From: an uncultured Methanosarcinales archaeon | Lineage (GTDB): Archaea; Nanobdellota; Nanobdellia; Woesearchaeales; CAXGTL01 | Reading direction: 5' to 3' | Assembly (NCBI GenBank): GCA_964645705.1 | Contig: CAZYAB010000007.1 | Location: 466 to 64,465, forward strand | DNA: 64,000 nt | In this document: positions 2,514-64,000 of the stretch, piece after piece | Position numbering within the stretch: position 1 is the stretch's first letter | Layout of the letters: the number at the start of each line of letters is the position of its first letter | Translations under genes and position numbers: made by a program | The notes under the pieces: model-generated | Told to the model about the DNA's origin: nothing | Databases searched by the model: none | The model's input: the letters and a program-made list of their open reading frames with translations, nothing else

Positions 2514-3119
2514 TTATTTCTTATTCCCAAAATAAAACACATTCTCTACAGACACATCTTCGGAACTGTAATTACCTTGCTTAGGATGTGATTCTTTTTT
2601 AGGTTCTGGTTTTGGTTCTTTTTTAGGTATGCCTCTTGGTTGTTGTTCTGGCTCATCATCTTCTATATTAATTTCTTCTGAACCTTTTGGAGCAGATACC
2701 ATCATTTCGCCCATCTTTGTTTGTCTTCTGGCTAATTCTTGTACATTGTTTTCAAAAGTTCCTATCTTAGAATGAATGCCTTCTAATTGTTTTTGAAAGT
2801 CTTTTAACAGCTTTACAATGTATTCATTGTTCTTAGCCATTGCTTGCTGCCATGTCATGCCTGTTCTTTCATCTTTAGCAGATTGTTGTTGTGGTTTTGG
2901 TTGTTGTGTTTGTTCTGGTTCTCTTTGCGGCCTTGGTTGTTGTGGTTGTGATCCTCCTGTTCCTAGATCTCTGCTGTGTGTAACACTTGCACCTTCGCCT
3001 AACATCTTTGTTGCTTTTTGAACAGCCTCGTCAAAAGAAGTAGCCATGCCATGAGAAATAAGCTCTTTAGCCATTTTGTTTATTTTTTTAATATCTTCAA
3101 CATATCCCATAATTATCAC
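2514..3119 (-). CDS. Hypothetical coiled-coil/low-complexity protein
   Basis: Q/P-rich linkers, coiled coil, C-terminal HPKQGNYSSEDVSVENVFYFG motif; start probably ATG at 3110 after GGTGA RBS. Confidence 0.75.
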   Translation of the reverse strand: MIIMGYVEDIKKINKMAKELISHGMATSFDEAVQKATKMLGEGASVTHSRDLGTGGSQPQQPRPQREPEQTQQPKPQQQSAKDERTGMTWQQAMAKNNEYIVKLLKDFQKQLEGIHSKIGTFENNVQELARRQTKMGEMMVSAPKGSEEINIEDDEPEQQPRGIPKKEPKPEPKKESHPKQGNYSSEDVSVENVFYFGNKK

Positions 3120-3212: not shown

Positions 3213-3728
3213 TTATGATAGAAAATAGATAATATCTTTGGTCTCTTGTATTTTCTTTTTTATATTAAAATGTTTCTTAATCAATCTCTTTATCTTAGGC
3301 AATTTCTTGCTTTTCTTTAATATTGTTATTATAAACTTCTTTTTACCAACTCTTTTCATTTCTTTTAAACCTTTTTCTATGTTTGTGAAGTTGTGTATTG
3401 CTGTTATTGATATGACAATGTCAAACTCATTTCTACCAAAAGGCAATTGTTCTGCTTTTCCTTTGATAAATGTTTTTTTTGATTTCTTTGTTTTATTTTT
3501 CTTTTTTTCTTTTTTCCTAGCAATCTTAATCAATTCAATACTAGGATCTATACCAACAACATGACAATCAAAGTCTGAACTAATCCCTGTTCCACAACCA
3601 ACATCTAGAAGTTTGGTGCTCTTGTTCAGCTTGATGTGATTCTTTATAATTCTTAATTTATTAAGTTGTTCTTCTTTATGAAGACCATCATAACCTTTTG
3701 CAATTTTGTCATAATATGTTTTTGCCAT
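3213..3728 (-). CDS. Class I SAM-dependent methyltransferase
   Basis: LLDVGCGTG, GIDPS, AEQLPF..FDIVIS motifs. Confidence 0.9.
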   Translation of the reverse strand: MAKTYYDKIAKGYDGLHKEEQLNKLRIIKNHIKLNKSTKLLDVGCGTGISSDFDCHVVGIDPSIELIKIARKKEKKKNKTKKSKKTFIKGKAEQLPFGRNEFDIVISITAIHNFTNIEKGLKEMKRVGKKKFIITILKKSKKLPKIKRLIKKHFNIKKKIQETKDIIYFLS

Positions 3729-29545: not shown

Positions 29546-29653
29546 GGGTCTGTGGTCTAGTGGCTATGCTTGTTTGCACCACAAATGACTTCTCGTTGAC
29601 TAGCCAATATCTCAGAACCGAGACGGTCGCCGGTTCAAGTCCGGCCAGACCCA
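29546..29653 (+). tRNA. tRNA-Val(GAC) with two BHB introns (D-loop: 29566-29584; 37/38: 29602-29617)
   Basis: Acceptor GGGTCTG/CAGACCC with A73; anticodon stem TCTCG/CGAGA; T arm GCCGG-TTCAAGT-CCGGC. BHB helices GUGG/CCAC and UUGA/UCAG. Confidence 0.88.
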
Positions 29654-40525: not shown

Positions 40526-41165
40526 TACCTAAACTTTTTAATTTTCTTATTAAGGTTTCATACCTTATTTTTATTTTTTTTGCTGTTGTGGTGATGTTGT
40601 GATTGTTTTCTTCCAGAGCTTTCATTAAATATCTTCTTTCGAACTCTTCTTCTGCTTCTTTTAATGTTAATTTTTTTGTTGGTATTTCATTTATAATCTC
40701 TTTTGAGAATTTAGGCACTTTTTCATATGCTTTTTGTAATGCTTCTTCTTTTATTACATCTTTGTATTCGTCTAATGCATCTTTTACTCGTGTACCTATG
40801 ACCATTTTTTTGTAATGATCTGGGTTAAGAAGTTCTGATCTTAGTTTTTTTACATCTATGTTTAGTTCTTTTACAATTCTATGGATAGTCCTTCTGTCAA
40901 CGTCTGTGAAATTAGCAACTTCTGATATGTTTCCATAATGTGTTTCTATTAATTGAGAAAAAAACTGTTTTTTAAATATTCTTTTTGCTTGTTTAAATGG
41001 TATGGATGTGTCAACTGTGAAATTTATCAAGGGTTTTCCTAGCTTGTCTAATAATGTTTCATTTAATTCTTTTATTGATACTCCTATTAATTCTTTGGTT
41101 GCTTTTGCGACTTTTTCTTTGACTAGTTGTTTTTCTAAAGCTGATTCTTTGGATTTTTCTTTCAT
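40518..41165 (-). CDS. Protein with two Fis-type helix-turn-helix modules
   Basis: HYGNISEVANFTDVDRRTIHR and LKEAEEEFERRYLMKALEENNHNITTTAKKIKIRYETLIRKLK; no AAA+ domain. Confidence 0.8.
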   Translation of the reverse strand: MKEKSKESALEKQLVKEKVAKATKELIGVSIKELNETLLDKLGKPLINFTVDTSIPFKQAKRIFKKQFFSQLIETHYGNISEVANFTDVDRRTIHRIVKELNIDVKKLRSELLNPDHYKKMVIGTRVKDALDEYKDVIKEEALQKAYEKVPKFSKEIINEIPTKKLTLKEAEEEFERRYLMKALEENNHNITTTAKKIKIRYETLIRKLKSLGIR

Positions 41166-41203
41166 ATATGATATTTTTGTCGCAGTGGTTTATAAGGGTT
41201 TTG

Positions 41204-41316
41204 GTATGTGCATGGCTCGTTCGCACTTTCCATGTGCATTACTGTTGCATGGAAAGTCCTGATAGTGTTATCATATAATGGGTGCTCACTGGCCTTAACA
41301 GGCGCCATGCACATAC
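41204..41316. ncRNA. Unrecognised structured RNA motif, copy 1
   Basis: 13-bp terminal stem, CTTTCCA/TGGAAAG hairpin and conserved linkers shared with 54730-54830. Confidence 0.7.
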
Positions 41317-41362
41317 ATGTTTTGGTTAGGTTTATATATAATTAATTCTTTATAAAATATAT

Positions 41363-42172
41363 ATGGCTAAGAAAAAGAAGAGGTCTAGAAAAAAGAAAAA
41401 AAAGAATGTCTTGTTTTCTATTGTTAAATATTGTTTGTGGTATCCTATTAAATATTTAGGTAAAGGTTTTATGTGGGTTTTTTATAAAATAAAGGATAGA
41501 AAAGAGAATGTTGTTCTTGATAAAAAAACAAAAGCATTGATTGCTAAAAAGTATAAAACAAAAATTCTTGAAACAATTAAAGGTGATTATAAAGTTTTTT
41601 GGAAAAATCTTAAAAAGTCTGATTCATTGATTGGTATTGTTATAGGTGCAAGAGGTTCTGGTAAGACAGCAGTTGCATTAAAATTATTAGAAGAATTAAA
41701 AGGTTCTAAGAAAAAGATGTTTGCTATGGGTTTTTCTAGTTTGCCAAGATGGATAAAAATTGTTGATGATATTCATAAGATTAAGAATAATTCGTATGTT
41801 GTAATAGATGAAGGCGGAATCTTGTTTTCATCTAGAAAGTCTATGACTAATGCTAATAGGTTATTGACTGATCTTTTGCTTATTGCTAGGCACAAGAACT
41901 TAACAATATTATTTATATCACAGAATTCATCTAACCTAGATGTAAATACTTTGAGGCAAGCTGATTTTTTAATTTTGAAAAAGTCTTCTCTTTTGCAAAA
42001 GAACTTTGAAAGAAAAGTTATTGCAAAGACTTATGATGATTATAGTTCTAAGTTTAAGTTGTATAAAGGTAATAAAGGTGCTTGTTTAGTTTATAGTGAT
42101 GAGTTTATTGGTTTTATAGAAAATGGTTTGCCTAGTTTTTGGTCTGCTAAGGTTAGTAAAGGGTTTAGGTAG
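41363..42172 (+). CDS. P-loop ATPase with N-terminal hydrophobic segment (Zot/FtsK-HerA-like)
   Basis: GARGSGKT, YVVIDEGG, ARHK, FISQ motifs. Confidence 0.75.
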   Translation: MAKKKKRSRKKKKKNVLFSIVKYCLWYPIKYLGKGFMWVFYKIKDRKENVVLDKKTKALIAKKYKTKILETIKGDYKVFWKNLKKSDSLIGIVIGARGSGKTAVALKLLEELKGSKKKMFAMGFSSLPRWIKIVDDIHKIKNNSYVVIDEGGILFSSRKSMTNANRLLTDLLLIARHKNLTILFISQNSSNLDVNTLRQADFLILKKSSLLQKNFERKVIAKTYDDYSSKFKLYKGNKGACLVYSDEFIGFIENGLPSFWSAKVSKGFR

Positions 42173-54670: not shown

Positions 54671-54729
54671 TTTTGCCTCTTTCTTTATCGTATTAGAAGC
54701 TTTGTAATATATAAATATATTGTTTTATA

Positions 54730-54830
54730 GTGTGCGTGGTTCGTTCGCACTTTCCAAGCAAAATAATGACACATGGAAAGCCCTGATAGTAAATATCTAT
54801 GCTTACTGGCTTTACAAGCACCACGCACAC
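54730..54830. ncRNA. Unrecognised structured RNA motif, copy 2
   Basis: Same architecture as 41204-41316 with compensatory changes. Confidence 0.7.
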
Positions 54831-55010
54831 ATATTCATATACTGCAACCGTTAGATTTATAAATGCCTGATTTTTTCTAAGTACTACGTATATCAAGGGA
54901 TATGCAGGTTTTAGTTTTAAGGGCTATTTAACTAAAGCTCGCATAAACTGGAGATAATATATTTTTTCTTTTTATATTGTCTCTTTGTAATATTATAAAG
55001 GTGAAAACAA

Positions 55011-63244: not shown

Positions 63245-63269
63245 AAAAACCATGCTAAACAAGATCACA

Positions 63270-64000
63270 TTAGATTCGAACTATTGGTAACTGCGGGCTG
63301 AATATCTCGCCGAAGCTTGATACTTACACCCCAGTCCCATCAACCTCCTGTTTTAAGAGTATTCTACGGTGTCTCTTTTCAAGAAGGGCTTCGTGCTTAG
63401 ATGCATTCAGCACTTATCCTTTAGCGCGTAGCTGCTTGGCATACCTTATCAGATAACCAATAGACCAGCGGCGCCGAGAGCCAGTTCCTCTCGTACTATG
63501 GCTCCCTTTCTTTCAGACACCAAACATCTCCAGTAGATAATAAACAAACTGTCTCACAACGTTCTGAACCCAGCTCACGTTCCCTTTTGATGGGTGAACA
63601 CCCCCACCCTTGGGCGCCTGTGCACGCCCAGGTTAGGAAGAGCCGACATCGGTGAAGCAAGCCGCGCCGTCGATTTACTCTTAACTCTAAGTCATAACTA
63701 ACGCAGGAAGTTTTAACAAACCAACTGATATAAAGTTATTTGTCGCTTAGAGCTAATAGGAGCTCTCGGGCGCGACAACTCTATTATCCCCGGAGTAACT
63801 TTTCAGTCATCTCAGACTCCCATTAAAGAAGTACTGAGGTTCGCTAGACCAAACTTTCGTTTTTGAAATTCGTATTATTGGGATTCCAATCAGGCTAACT
63901 TTTGCTCTTGCACTCTACATCGGATTTCTGACCCGATTGAGTTAACCTTTGGGCCCTGCTGATAAATTTTCAGCAGGATGCCACCCCAGCTAAACTGTCT
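63270..64000 (-). rRNA. rrl: 23S rRNA, 3' portion (domains V-VI), runs off window; 3' end approximate
   Basis: Reverse complement contains GAUGUCGGCUC, GUGAGCUGGGUUCAGAAC, sarcin-ricin loop AGUACGAGAGGAAC and GCAUCUAAGCACGAAGC. Confidence 0.97.
63675..63757 (-). other. 83-nt BHB intron in 23S rRNA helix 89
   Basis: Interrupts GAGCUCCU|AUCGAC; BHB GCUC/GAGU with CUA and AAA bulges; 11-bp stem UUAGCUCUAAG/CUUAGAGUUAA. Confidence 0.88.

What the first reader, a model, noticed from the sequence alone, without database searches (positions are those of the whole stretch)
41204..41316. Unrecognised multi-stem RNA motif present twice with compensatory changes (copy 1)
Seen: this intergenic segment and 54730-54830 share architecture. 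P1 is GTGCATGGC/GCCATGCAC vs GTGCGTGGT/ACCACGCAC. Then come an invariant TCGTTCGCA, P2 CTTTCCA/TGGAAAG with a variable loop, and an invariant CCTGAT. P3 is AGTG/CACT vs AGTA/TACT, and P4 is GCCT/AGGC vs GCTT/AAGC. Three helices covary while the single-stranded linkers are conserved and the loops diverge, the signature of selection on an RNA structure with a functional core. It matches no riboswitch, ribozyme, SRP, RNase P or tRNA consensus I know. TATA-like boxes ~25-35 nt to the right of both copies weakly favour minus-strand transcription. Inference: a new archaeal ncRNA class (ribozyme, riboswitch or RNP scaffold).
Basis: partly seen in the sequence, partly recalled or inferred. Interest (0 to 1): 0.85.

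Follow-up and report, generated by a model that had tools for sequence, protein, structure and literature searches.

The report
Structured mobile repeat, not RNA gene
The two look-alike segments are copies of a small jumping DNA element that keeps a well-preserved folded shape, so this is a mobile repeat family and not a new housekeeping RNA gene.

Summary
The shared architecture is real but was under-counted and partly mis-drawn. The motif is not present twice. It is a ~115-nt family with 21 copies in this 1.29-Mb archaeal genome, 14, 56 and 19 copies in three congeners, and 16 and 2 in two other families of the order.

The copies are mobile. Of 36 congener copies whose flanking genes lie together in this genome, 6 sites are occupied here and 25 are clearly empty. 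In addition, 16 of 109 genus copies carry 9-bp target-site duplications against 0.9% in controls. Window copy 1 has one (8 of 9).

The internal fold nevertheless covaries strongly: 93% of cells are paired against 65% when shuffled, and 29 of 30 pairs show double changes. It has an invariant three-way-junction core and matches no Rfam family.

No promoter, no common gene context and no RNA data support an RNA gene. No transposase was found.

Closest analogues are structured bacterial mobile repeats such as bcr1. Interest is moderate to low.

The parts
41206..41317 (-). Copy 1 of the mobile element (fold polarity = minus strand)
   Evidence: CM R1 match at 41203-41317, 112.6 bits; boundaries set by the flanking direct repeats
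41197..41205 (.). Target-site duplication, left copy (GGTTTTGGT on +)
   Evidence: 8 of 9 identical to 41318-41326
41318..41326 (.). Target-site duplication, right copy (TGTTTTGGT on +)
41206..41216 (-). P1 arm = terminal inverted repeat (pairs with 41304-41314)
   Evidence: 13-pair helix, 12 pairs covary in 20 copies, 13 of 13 in 128 copies
41304..41314 (-). P1 arm = terminal inverted repeat (other end)
41292..41303 (-). P4 hairpin (GCCU/AGGC) next to the P1 arm
   Evidence: 98.8% paired, 3 of 4 pairs covary; conserved in another family, G005
41286..41291 (-). Invariant junction strand CAGUGA (minus-strand reading)
   Evidence: Invariant or nearly invariant columns; kept in G005 and G014
41217..41222 (-). 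Invariant junction strand GAACGA (minus-strand reading)
41223..41225 (-). Pa, 3-bp long-range helix (pairs with 41283-41285)
   Evidence: 100% paired, 3 of 3 pairs covary; 97.6% in 128 copies
41226..41256 (-). P2 hairpin (8 bp) with a variable 15-nt loop
   Evidence: 6 of 8 pairs covary, 8 of 8 in 128 copies
41266..41273 (-). P3 mini-hairpin, 2 bp plus tetraloop (AUAA here; GUAA in most copies)
   Evidence: Pair 53/58 covaries: CG 7, UA 6, GC 3, AU 1; loops counted; hairpin missing in 3 of 20 copies
54730..54830 (-). Copy 2 of the mobile element; lacks the P3 hairpin; no recognisable target duplication left (3 of 9)
   Evidence: CM match at 54727-54833, 91 bits; TSD test

Best explanation
The two segments are copies of a non-autonomous DNA transposon, a MITE-like element of about 105-120 bp.

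Insertion duplicates 9 bp of target, which points to a transposase making 9-bp staggered cuts. That enzyme must be supplied in trans, and it was not found.

The element lands in AT-rich intergenic spacers in either orientation. It differs in number and position between sister species.

Its interior is not junk. An invariant three-way junction sits next to the ends: the P1 arm, the P4 hairpin, CAGUGA, helix Pa, GAACGA and the other P1 arm. A swappable inner domain (Pa, P2, P3) completes the fold, and the fold is kept by compensatory change.

Inferred, not shown: the fold is a cis-acting requirement of the element's own propagation, read in single-stranded form (a transcript, or single-stranded DNA of the minus-strand polarity). 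It is not a host RNA gene. Confidence in this sub-claim is about 0.45. Confidence that the element is mobile and MITE-like is about 0.85.
For: Copy number: 21 in this genome. Among 41 genomes of the order, 14, 56 and 19 in three congeners, 16 and 2 in two other families, and none in 35.

Filled and empty sites: 36 congener copies have both flanking ORFs mapping together in this genome. Of these, 6 sites hold an element, 25 are empty with less than 200 nt between the two ORF matches, and 5 are ambiguous. Fourteen filled and empty site pairs were aligned; most show one long gap at the element, with poorly conserved spacers around it.

Target duplications: direct 9-bp repeats abut the P1 arms. 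At least 8 of 9 match in 16 of 109 genus copies against 0.9% with shuffled partners. Window copy 1 has 8 of 9.

Independent insertions in one spacer: in the dCTP deaminase-S15 spacer the congener's copy lies in the opposite orientation and has its own perfect duplication TGTATAAAT. By my reading of the alignment it sits about 30 bp from window copy 2.

No promoter at a fixed distance.

Neighbouring genes are unrelated in function.

Orientation between tandem genes is 25 sense to 16 antisense.

Fold. Among 30 nearest-neighbour pairs, paired sites change at 0.126 per site against 0.238 for unpaired sites, and 59 pairs changed on both sides against 12.2 expected; 54 of the 59 still pair.

The junction core is kept in another family, while the inner domain differs or fails to align in about half of that family's copies.

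At one true orthologous copy the outer 53 nt are identical while the inner domain is swapped.
Against: No autonomous partner or transposase was found.
- Seven Pfam families gave nothing over cut-off in the four genus assemblies, one of which is rated 100% complete: DDE_Tnp_1, Transposase_mut, rve, DDE_Tnp_IS1595, the TnpB zinc ribbon, Y1_Tnp and RVT_1.
- No IS-sized pairs of the end sequence turned up.

Most copies lack a recognisable duplication (93 of 109 below 8 of 9).

The two subterminal invariant strands are not inverted copies of each other, which is unusual for a simple TIR transposon.

The inner part of P1 varies freely while staying complementary. That fits hairpin formation better than sequence-specific protein binding.

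Copies whose duplication has decayed to chance (68 copies) still pair at 95.9%. This could mean selection on resident copies, and so a host-level or RNA function.
Confidence: 0.8

Rival explanations
1. It is a family of stand-alone small non-coding RNA genes (trans-acting regulator, guide or RNP scaffold) that multiplied by duplication. The variable 15-17-nt P2 loop would be a target-recognition element.
For: Strong covariation. G.U exceeds A.C by 75 to 42, and G..A tetraloops lie on one strand. The fold is retained in copies with decayed duplications. No Rfam match.
Against: There is no promoter signal at a fixed distance in 108 copies. Copy number runs from 14 to 56 among congeners, and most sites are not shared. 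The copies carry 9-bp target duplications. By my reading, copy 1 lies between the TATA-like boxes of two divergent, probably leaderless genes and so outside both transcription units. I did not test the P2 loops for complementarity to rRNA or mRNA.
Confidence: 0.08
2. The conserved three-way junction is a new catalytic or protein-binding RNA module carried by the mobile element. One version is a self-cleaving ribozyme that trims the element out of host transcripts. Another is a K-turn-like junction bound by an L7Ae-type protein.
For: The invariant junction strands (C/A)AGUGA and GAACGA flank Pa and could form tandem sheared G.A pairs (my reading). The core is conserved across families while the periphery varies. 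Known small ribozymes are often linked to mobile DNA (recalled, not checked here).
Against: No similarity to any Rfam ribozyme model at E<=10 or at E<=1 in 20 further loci. The hammerhead core CUGANGA...GAAA is not met by eye. There is no expression evidence. Orientation relative to genes is nearly random.
Confidence: 0.07
3. The fold has no function of its own. Pairing persists because the copies are young, because decayed copies are quickly deleted from a compact genome or missed by the search, and because gene conversion between copies refreshes them.
For: At one orthologous site the inner domain was replaced wholesale while the ends stayed identical, so recombination between copies does occur. 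Detection by a structure model favours intact copies. Solo end remnants exist.
Against: Paired sites change half as fast as unpaired sites, and double changes are five times the independent expectation. Individual pairs show many pair types. Sequence-only nhmmer found the same 21 loci and no decayed ones in this genome. Nested ~50-nt insertions are seen only in loops, never in stems.
Confidence: 0.12
4. The copies are recombination sites of the integron attC type, or another structure-specific recombination site folded as single-stranded DNA.
For: Structure is conserved more than sequence, polarity is strand-specific, and some copies in one congener cluster 0.5-3 kb apart in the same orientation (coordinates).
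Against: Site-specific recombination does not explain 9-bp target duplications. Most copies are dispersed singly between unrelated core genes. No integrase was looked for, and the R'/R'' consensus is not evident by eye.
Confidence: 0.03

Closest known systems
bcr1 repeat of the Bacillus cereus group (as described in Delihas 2011, PMC3184786; I read passages only)
   Same: A mobile element of roughly 100-155 bp with a non-conserved genomic distribution and short flanking direct repeats. Compensatory base changes keep a branched, cruciform-like fold.
   Different: bcr1 is bacterial, has 5-bp direct repeats and is reported to be transcribed. Here the host is archaeal, the duplications are 9 bp, the core is a three-way junction with invariant strands, and transcription is untested. 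No sequence relation was tested.
Classical prokaryotic MITEs, e.g. Chunjie of Geobacter (9-bp direct repeats, 21-bp TIRs; PMC3184786 passages) and Correia/nemis of Neisseria (named in PMC3184786, figure 1 legend, as characteristic of MITEs; its properties recalled)
   Same: Terminal inverted repeats, target-site duplication, intergenic multi-copy distribution, filled and empty sites between relatives, and a stable predicted fold.
   Different: Those families can be tied to an IS with matching ends. Here no parent IS or transposase was found. The inner part of the terminal repeat varies while staying complementary, and internal helices covary.
MITEs of DPANN archaea in a genome census (PMC11602168; passages only)
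   Same: That census reports very high MITE density in some DPANN genomes, including a Woesearchaea genome. One public MAG titled Candidatus Woesearchaeota carries a copy of this family (L225, 66.5 bits).
   Different: In the 12 passages I read (of 30 places), the census gives no structural analysis. Its sequence lists are in supplements I could not open, so this family may already be listed there.

Membership tests
MITE (miniature inverted-repeat transposable element) | Short, non-coding, many dispersed copies | tested here: met
   105-121 nt (up to ~170 with inserts). 21 copies here, 128 in six genomes.
MITE (miniature inverted-repeat transposable element) | Terminal inverted repeats | tested here: met
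   P1, 11-17 bp, 91% of cells paired.
MITE (miniature inverted-repeat transposable element) | Target-site duplication of fixed length | tested here: met
   9 bp. At least 8 of 9 match in 16 of 109 genus copies vs 0.9% in shuffled controls. The other 93 are decayed or absent.
MITE (miniature inverted-repeat transposable element) | Filled and empty orthologous sites in relatives | tested here: met
   Of 36 sites, 6 are filled, 25 empty and 5 ambiguous.
MITE (miniature inverted-repeat transposable element) | Parent IS or transposase with the same ends | tested here: inconclusive
   Seven Pfam families are absent from four assemblies. No IS-sized pairs of ends. Of 63 metagenome loci holding the left-end motif, 58 are chance matches and 5 are ordinary short copies. 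Multi-copy IS often fail to assemble in MAGs.
Stand-alone ncRNA gene family | Own promoter at a fixed distance | tested here: not met
   At most 0.14 bit at any of the 60 upstream positions in 108 copies.
Stand-alone ncRNA gene family | Transcript with defined ends | not testable with these tools
Riboswitch / cis-regulatory leader | Fixed position and orientation upstream of functionally related genes | tested here: not met
   Neighbours include an HTH protein, a DRG GTPase, LonB, GINS, an ABC permease, a kinase, LigT, dCTP deaminase and an epimerase. Orientation is 25 sense to 16 antisense.
Known Rfam families, including the hammerhead, twister, pistol, hatchet and HDV ribozymes, tRNA, 5S, SRP and RNase P | Score against the family covariance model | tested here: not met
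   No relevant hit at gathering thresholds, at E<=10 on both copies, or at E<=1 on 20 other loci. tRNA and 5S hits in the genome lie elsewhere.
bcr1-like structured mobile repeats | Mobile, with compensatory changes that keep a branched fold | tested here: met
   This shows it works like bcr1; common descent was not tested.
bcr1-like structured mobile repeats | Transcribed | not testable with these tools

The most novel reading that the evidence does not exclude
A mobile element of small-genome archaea carries a previously undescribed functional nucleic-acid module. This is the invariant three-way junction P1/P4/Pa with the strands CAGUGA and GAACGA. The module would be either a new ribozyme or protein-binding RNA, or a folded single strand that is itself the substrate of an unrecognised transposition enzyme. 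The second version would explain why no known transposase is found even in a genome rated 100% complete that holds 56 copies and several perfect target duplications.
Probability: 0.12. Interest if true: 0.75.

Novelty: new member of a known kind. Interest (0 to 1): 0.33.

Why it matters
The result replaces a claimed new RNA class with a documented mobile repeat. That prevents 21 or more false 'ncRNA genes' per genome in annotation of these archaea.

The family may still be useful. It gives 128 natural variants of one compact fold with clean filled and empty sites, a swappable inner domain, and nested insertions confined to loops. That makes it a good system for asking why some MITEs conserve structure and what mobilises them in genomes where no transposase is visible.

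It also marks insertion hot spots in promoter spacers of very compact genomes.

Tried and rejected
tRNA hypothesis. Only 6 tRNAs are detectable in the genome, which made a disguised tRNA family tempting. No cloverleaf could be fitted by eye, RF00005 hits lie elsewhere, and copy number varies from 14 to 56 between species.

5S rRNA. The genome's 5S gene is at C1:123613-123728.

H/ACA, C/D and hammerhead readings. I tried these by eye and rejected them: there is no consistent ACA box or C/D boxes, and the hammerhead core is not met.

Helix Pb (columns 41-42 with 66-67). Only 57.5% of cells pair. The register shifts between copies, so I left it out of the model.

Terminator role. T5+ runs after the element occur in 16 copies in one orientation and 18 in the other, of 109.

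Orientation. The G000-only ORF table suggested a sense bias. The wider, cruder count did not bear it out (25 vs 16, with 50 of 122 unassigned).

RNA evidence.

Collection scans.
- The viral scan gave 38 loci, none real by the model.
I ran the model on only 3 of its 118 loci, chosen by their titles; 2 were real.
- The metagenome scan gave 63 loci, of which 5 are real and all are short copies.

One search used a mis-specified pattern and is worthless.

A weak RVT_1 hit in a congener is a Trm5/TYW2-type protein.

Literature. Searches found no description of this family. The supplement lists of PMC11602168 could not be seen.

Full report
**What is at the coordinates**

The two segments are there as described. 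They align at 81% column identity. Each strand of each copy folds better than shuffled sequence (z-scores -2.9 to -5.6).

Rfam has nothing for them. This holds at gathering thresholds over the whole window (the only hit is an archaeal LSU rRNA fragment at 63264-64000), at E<=10 on each copy, and at E<=1 on 20 further loci holding diverse relatives.

**It is not a two-copy motif**

- BLAST of copy 1 against the window's own 1.29-Mb, 18-contig genome already found about a dozen relatives.
- Iterated nhmmer gave 21 loci.
- A covariance model (R1) built from 20 of them found the same 21 and no more.

Among 41 genomes of the same order:
- three congeners hold 14, 56 and 19 copies;
- one genome from each of two other families holds 16 copies and 2 weak copies;
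- 35 genomes hold none.

One public MAG titled Candidatus Woesearchaeota also carries a copy.

**The fold**

I aligned 20 own-genome copies in the polarity of the window's minus strand (A2). The supported helices are:

- P1, the closing stem, 13 columns;
- P4, a 4-bp hairpin directly after the 5' arm of P1;
- Pa, 3 bp, long-range;
- P2, an 8-bp hairpin with a 15-17-nt variable loop;
- P3, a 2-bp mini-hairpin.

In these 20 copies 91.5% of cells pair against 68.5% in shuffles and 29-44% when the partner is slid. 26 of 32 pairs changed on both sides.

On 128 copies from six genomes the figures are 93.1% against 65.2%, with 29 of 30 pairs changed on both sides. That alignment was fitted to the model, so it leans towards the model's structure.

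On the minus strand they read (C/A)AGUGA, between P4 and Pa, and GAACGA, between Pa and the 3' arm of P1.

In a genome from another family (G005), P1, P4, both invariant strands and Pa are kept, while the inner domain differs or does not align in about half of its copies. The conserved unit is therefore a three-way junction next to the two ends.

**Polarity**

- In the 20 own copies, G.U outnumbers A.C by 9-10 to 1-2, and 15 of 17 P3 loops are G..A.
- In all 128 copies the ratio is 75 to 42, and 83 of 102 four-letter loops are G..A.

The minus strand of the window is the better polarity, but only moderately so. The same asymmetry would also fit a folded single DNA strand.

**It is mobile**

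I took the ORFs flanking each congener copy and mapped them onto this genome. For 36 copies both flanks map together:

- 6 of these sites hold an element here;
- 25 are empty, with less than 200 nt between the two ORF matches;
- 5 are ambiguous.

Fourteen filled and empty site pairs were aligned. Most show one long gap at the element, although the spacers around it are poorly conserved.

Direct 9-bp repeats abut the P1 arms. Examples are CTATTTTTT, GAAAATTAA, CTACTTTTT, TTAATATAG, TGTATAAAT and GGTGAAATA. At the canonical offsets, at least 8 of 9 positions match in:

| Genome | Copies with >=8/9 |
|---|---|
| G000 | 3 of 21 |
| G001 | 3 of 14 |
| G002 | 7 of 55 |
| G003 | 3 of 19 |
| G005 | 0 of 16 |
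| Shuffled partners | 0.9% |

.

Window copy 1 is flanked by GGTTTTGGT (41197-41205) and TGTTTTGGT (41318-41326). Window copy 2 has no recognisable duplication (3 of 9).

In the spacer between dCTP deaminase and S15, the congener G002 has a copy in the opposite orientation with its own perfect duplication. By my reading it lies about 30 bp from the position of window copy 2. These are two independent insertions in one spacer.

**What it is not**

- *Not a pathway riboswitch.* The 20 neighbouring proteins scanned are unrelated in function.
- *No sign of being a gene with its own promoter.* No flank position carries more than 0.14 bit in 108 copies.
- *Window copy 1 probably lies outside both flanking transcripts.* Read directly, it sits between a TATA-like box about 28 nt before the start codon of the minus-strand HTH gene (ATG at 41165) and another about 27 nt before the plus-strand gene (ATG at 41363). 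If both genes are leaderless, which is an inference from the usual archaeal spacing, the copy lies outside both transcription units.
- *No strong orientation preference.* Orientation between tandem genes is 25 sense to 16 antisense, with 50 of 122 copies unassigned by a crude ORF rule.
- *Not a terminator.* T-runs follow the element equally in both orientations (16 vs 18 of 109).

**Why the fold is nevertheless interesting**

Among 30 nearest-neighbour copy pairs:
- paired sites change at 0.126 per site against 0.238 for unpaired sites;
- 59 pairs changed on both sides against 12.2 expected if the sides changed independently, and 54 of the 59 still pair.

Copies whose target duplication has decayed to chance (68 copies) still pair at 95.9%, against 98.6% in the 16 copies with fresh duplications.

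Nested ~50-nt two-hairpin insertions occur in the P4 loop or the P3 loop, not in stems. The own-genome copy on contig C12 has such an insert.

At one true orthologous site (own C1:146274-146389 against a G002 copy), the outer 53 nt are identical and the flanks are similar. The inner domain, however, belongs to the other subfamily. Copies therefore recombine, and the inner domain behaves as a module.

**Who moves it**

This is unknown.

- Seven Pfam families gave nothing over cut-off in the four genus assemblies. These were DDE_Tnp_1, Transposase_mut, rve, DDE_Tnp_IS1595, the TnpB zinc ribbon, Y1_Tnp and RVT_1. The one weak RVT_1 hit is a Trm5/TYW2 protein.
- Searches for the end motif found only short copies, solo remnants and chance matches.
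- None of the 38 viral contigs that matched the core pattern carries the element.

Other transposase families were not searched, and MAGs often lose multi-copy IS.

**Comparison with what is known**

Structured mobile repeats are a known kind. In the passages I read of Delihas 2011 (PMC3184786):
- bcr1 of the Bacillus cereus group is a ~155-bp mobile, transcribed repeat with 5-bp direct repeats and compensatory changes that keep a cruciform-like RNA;
- Chunjie is a MITE with 9-bp direct repeats.

A census (PMC11602168, passages) reports very high MITE density in some DPANN genomes.

My searches found no description of this family or of its junction core.

**Verdict**

This is a MITE-like mobile element (confidence about 0.85) with an unusually well-conserved branched fold. 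It is a new member of a known kind and not a new RNA gene class.

The best-supported reading of the fold is a cis requirement of the element's own spread, read as a single strand (about 0.45). Next come a fold maintained without function (about 0.12-0.15), an RNA gene (about 0.08) and a new catalytic or protein-binding module (about 0.07).

Noticed in passing
Whole genome G000; the window hit is at 29546-29653 (= C7:30011-30118): Only 6 tRNA genes are detectable in a 1.29-Mb genome rated 95% complete, by both ARAGORN and RF00005. Four of the ARAGORN calls carry introns. This suggests that most tRNA genes are non-canonical (unusual or multiple introns, or split genes). find_trnas found none in the window, although RF00005 scores C7:30011-30118 at 43 bits.
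   Followed up: partly
G000:C8 about 41560-41675 (+), locus L011 about 2960-3076: By eye, a tRNA-like piece lies next to the C8 copy: an anticodon arm with CCU, a GTTCGAAT T-loop followed by about 30 extra nt, then the T-stem and acceptor 3' strands. Deleting any single 8-60-nt stretch did not make ARAGORN call a tRNA, so it is unconfirmed.
   Followed up: partly
G000, about 20 sites, e.g. C3:89069-89103, C3:110742-110776, C3:215350-215393, C4:21993-22034, C1:146412-146454: A second repeat family: a ~35-nt C-rich motif (roughly CCCACCATCC-N5-7-CCCCCAACCACCCACCC-TGG) in a 30% GC genome. Its complement is G-rich with several G-runs. One copy sits beside the C1:146k element and is conserved in two congeners.
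   Followed up: no
L140 (G002:C4:16516-16679), L141 (G002:C4:25145-25309); own genome C12:8794-8960: Nested ~50-nt insertions made of two short hairpins sit inside loops of the element (P4 loop or P3 loop). Related insert sequences recur in several copies and species. This may be a second, even smaller mobile module.
   Followed up: partly
L298:1087-2919 (G002:C3): A 611-aa Trm5/TYW2-type methyltransferase whose Pfam match comes in two stretches, with a xylose-isomerase-like TIM-barrel match (residues 318-493) as well.
   Followed up: no
L138 about 3480-3540 (G002:C2 about 112080-112140): A solo 3' end of the element (GC-AACGA plus a P1 arm) overlaps the last codons and stop of a 226-aa ORF. 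An element remnant has therefore become part of a coding end.
   Followed up: no
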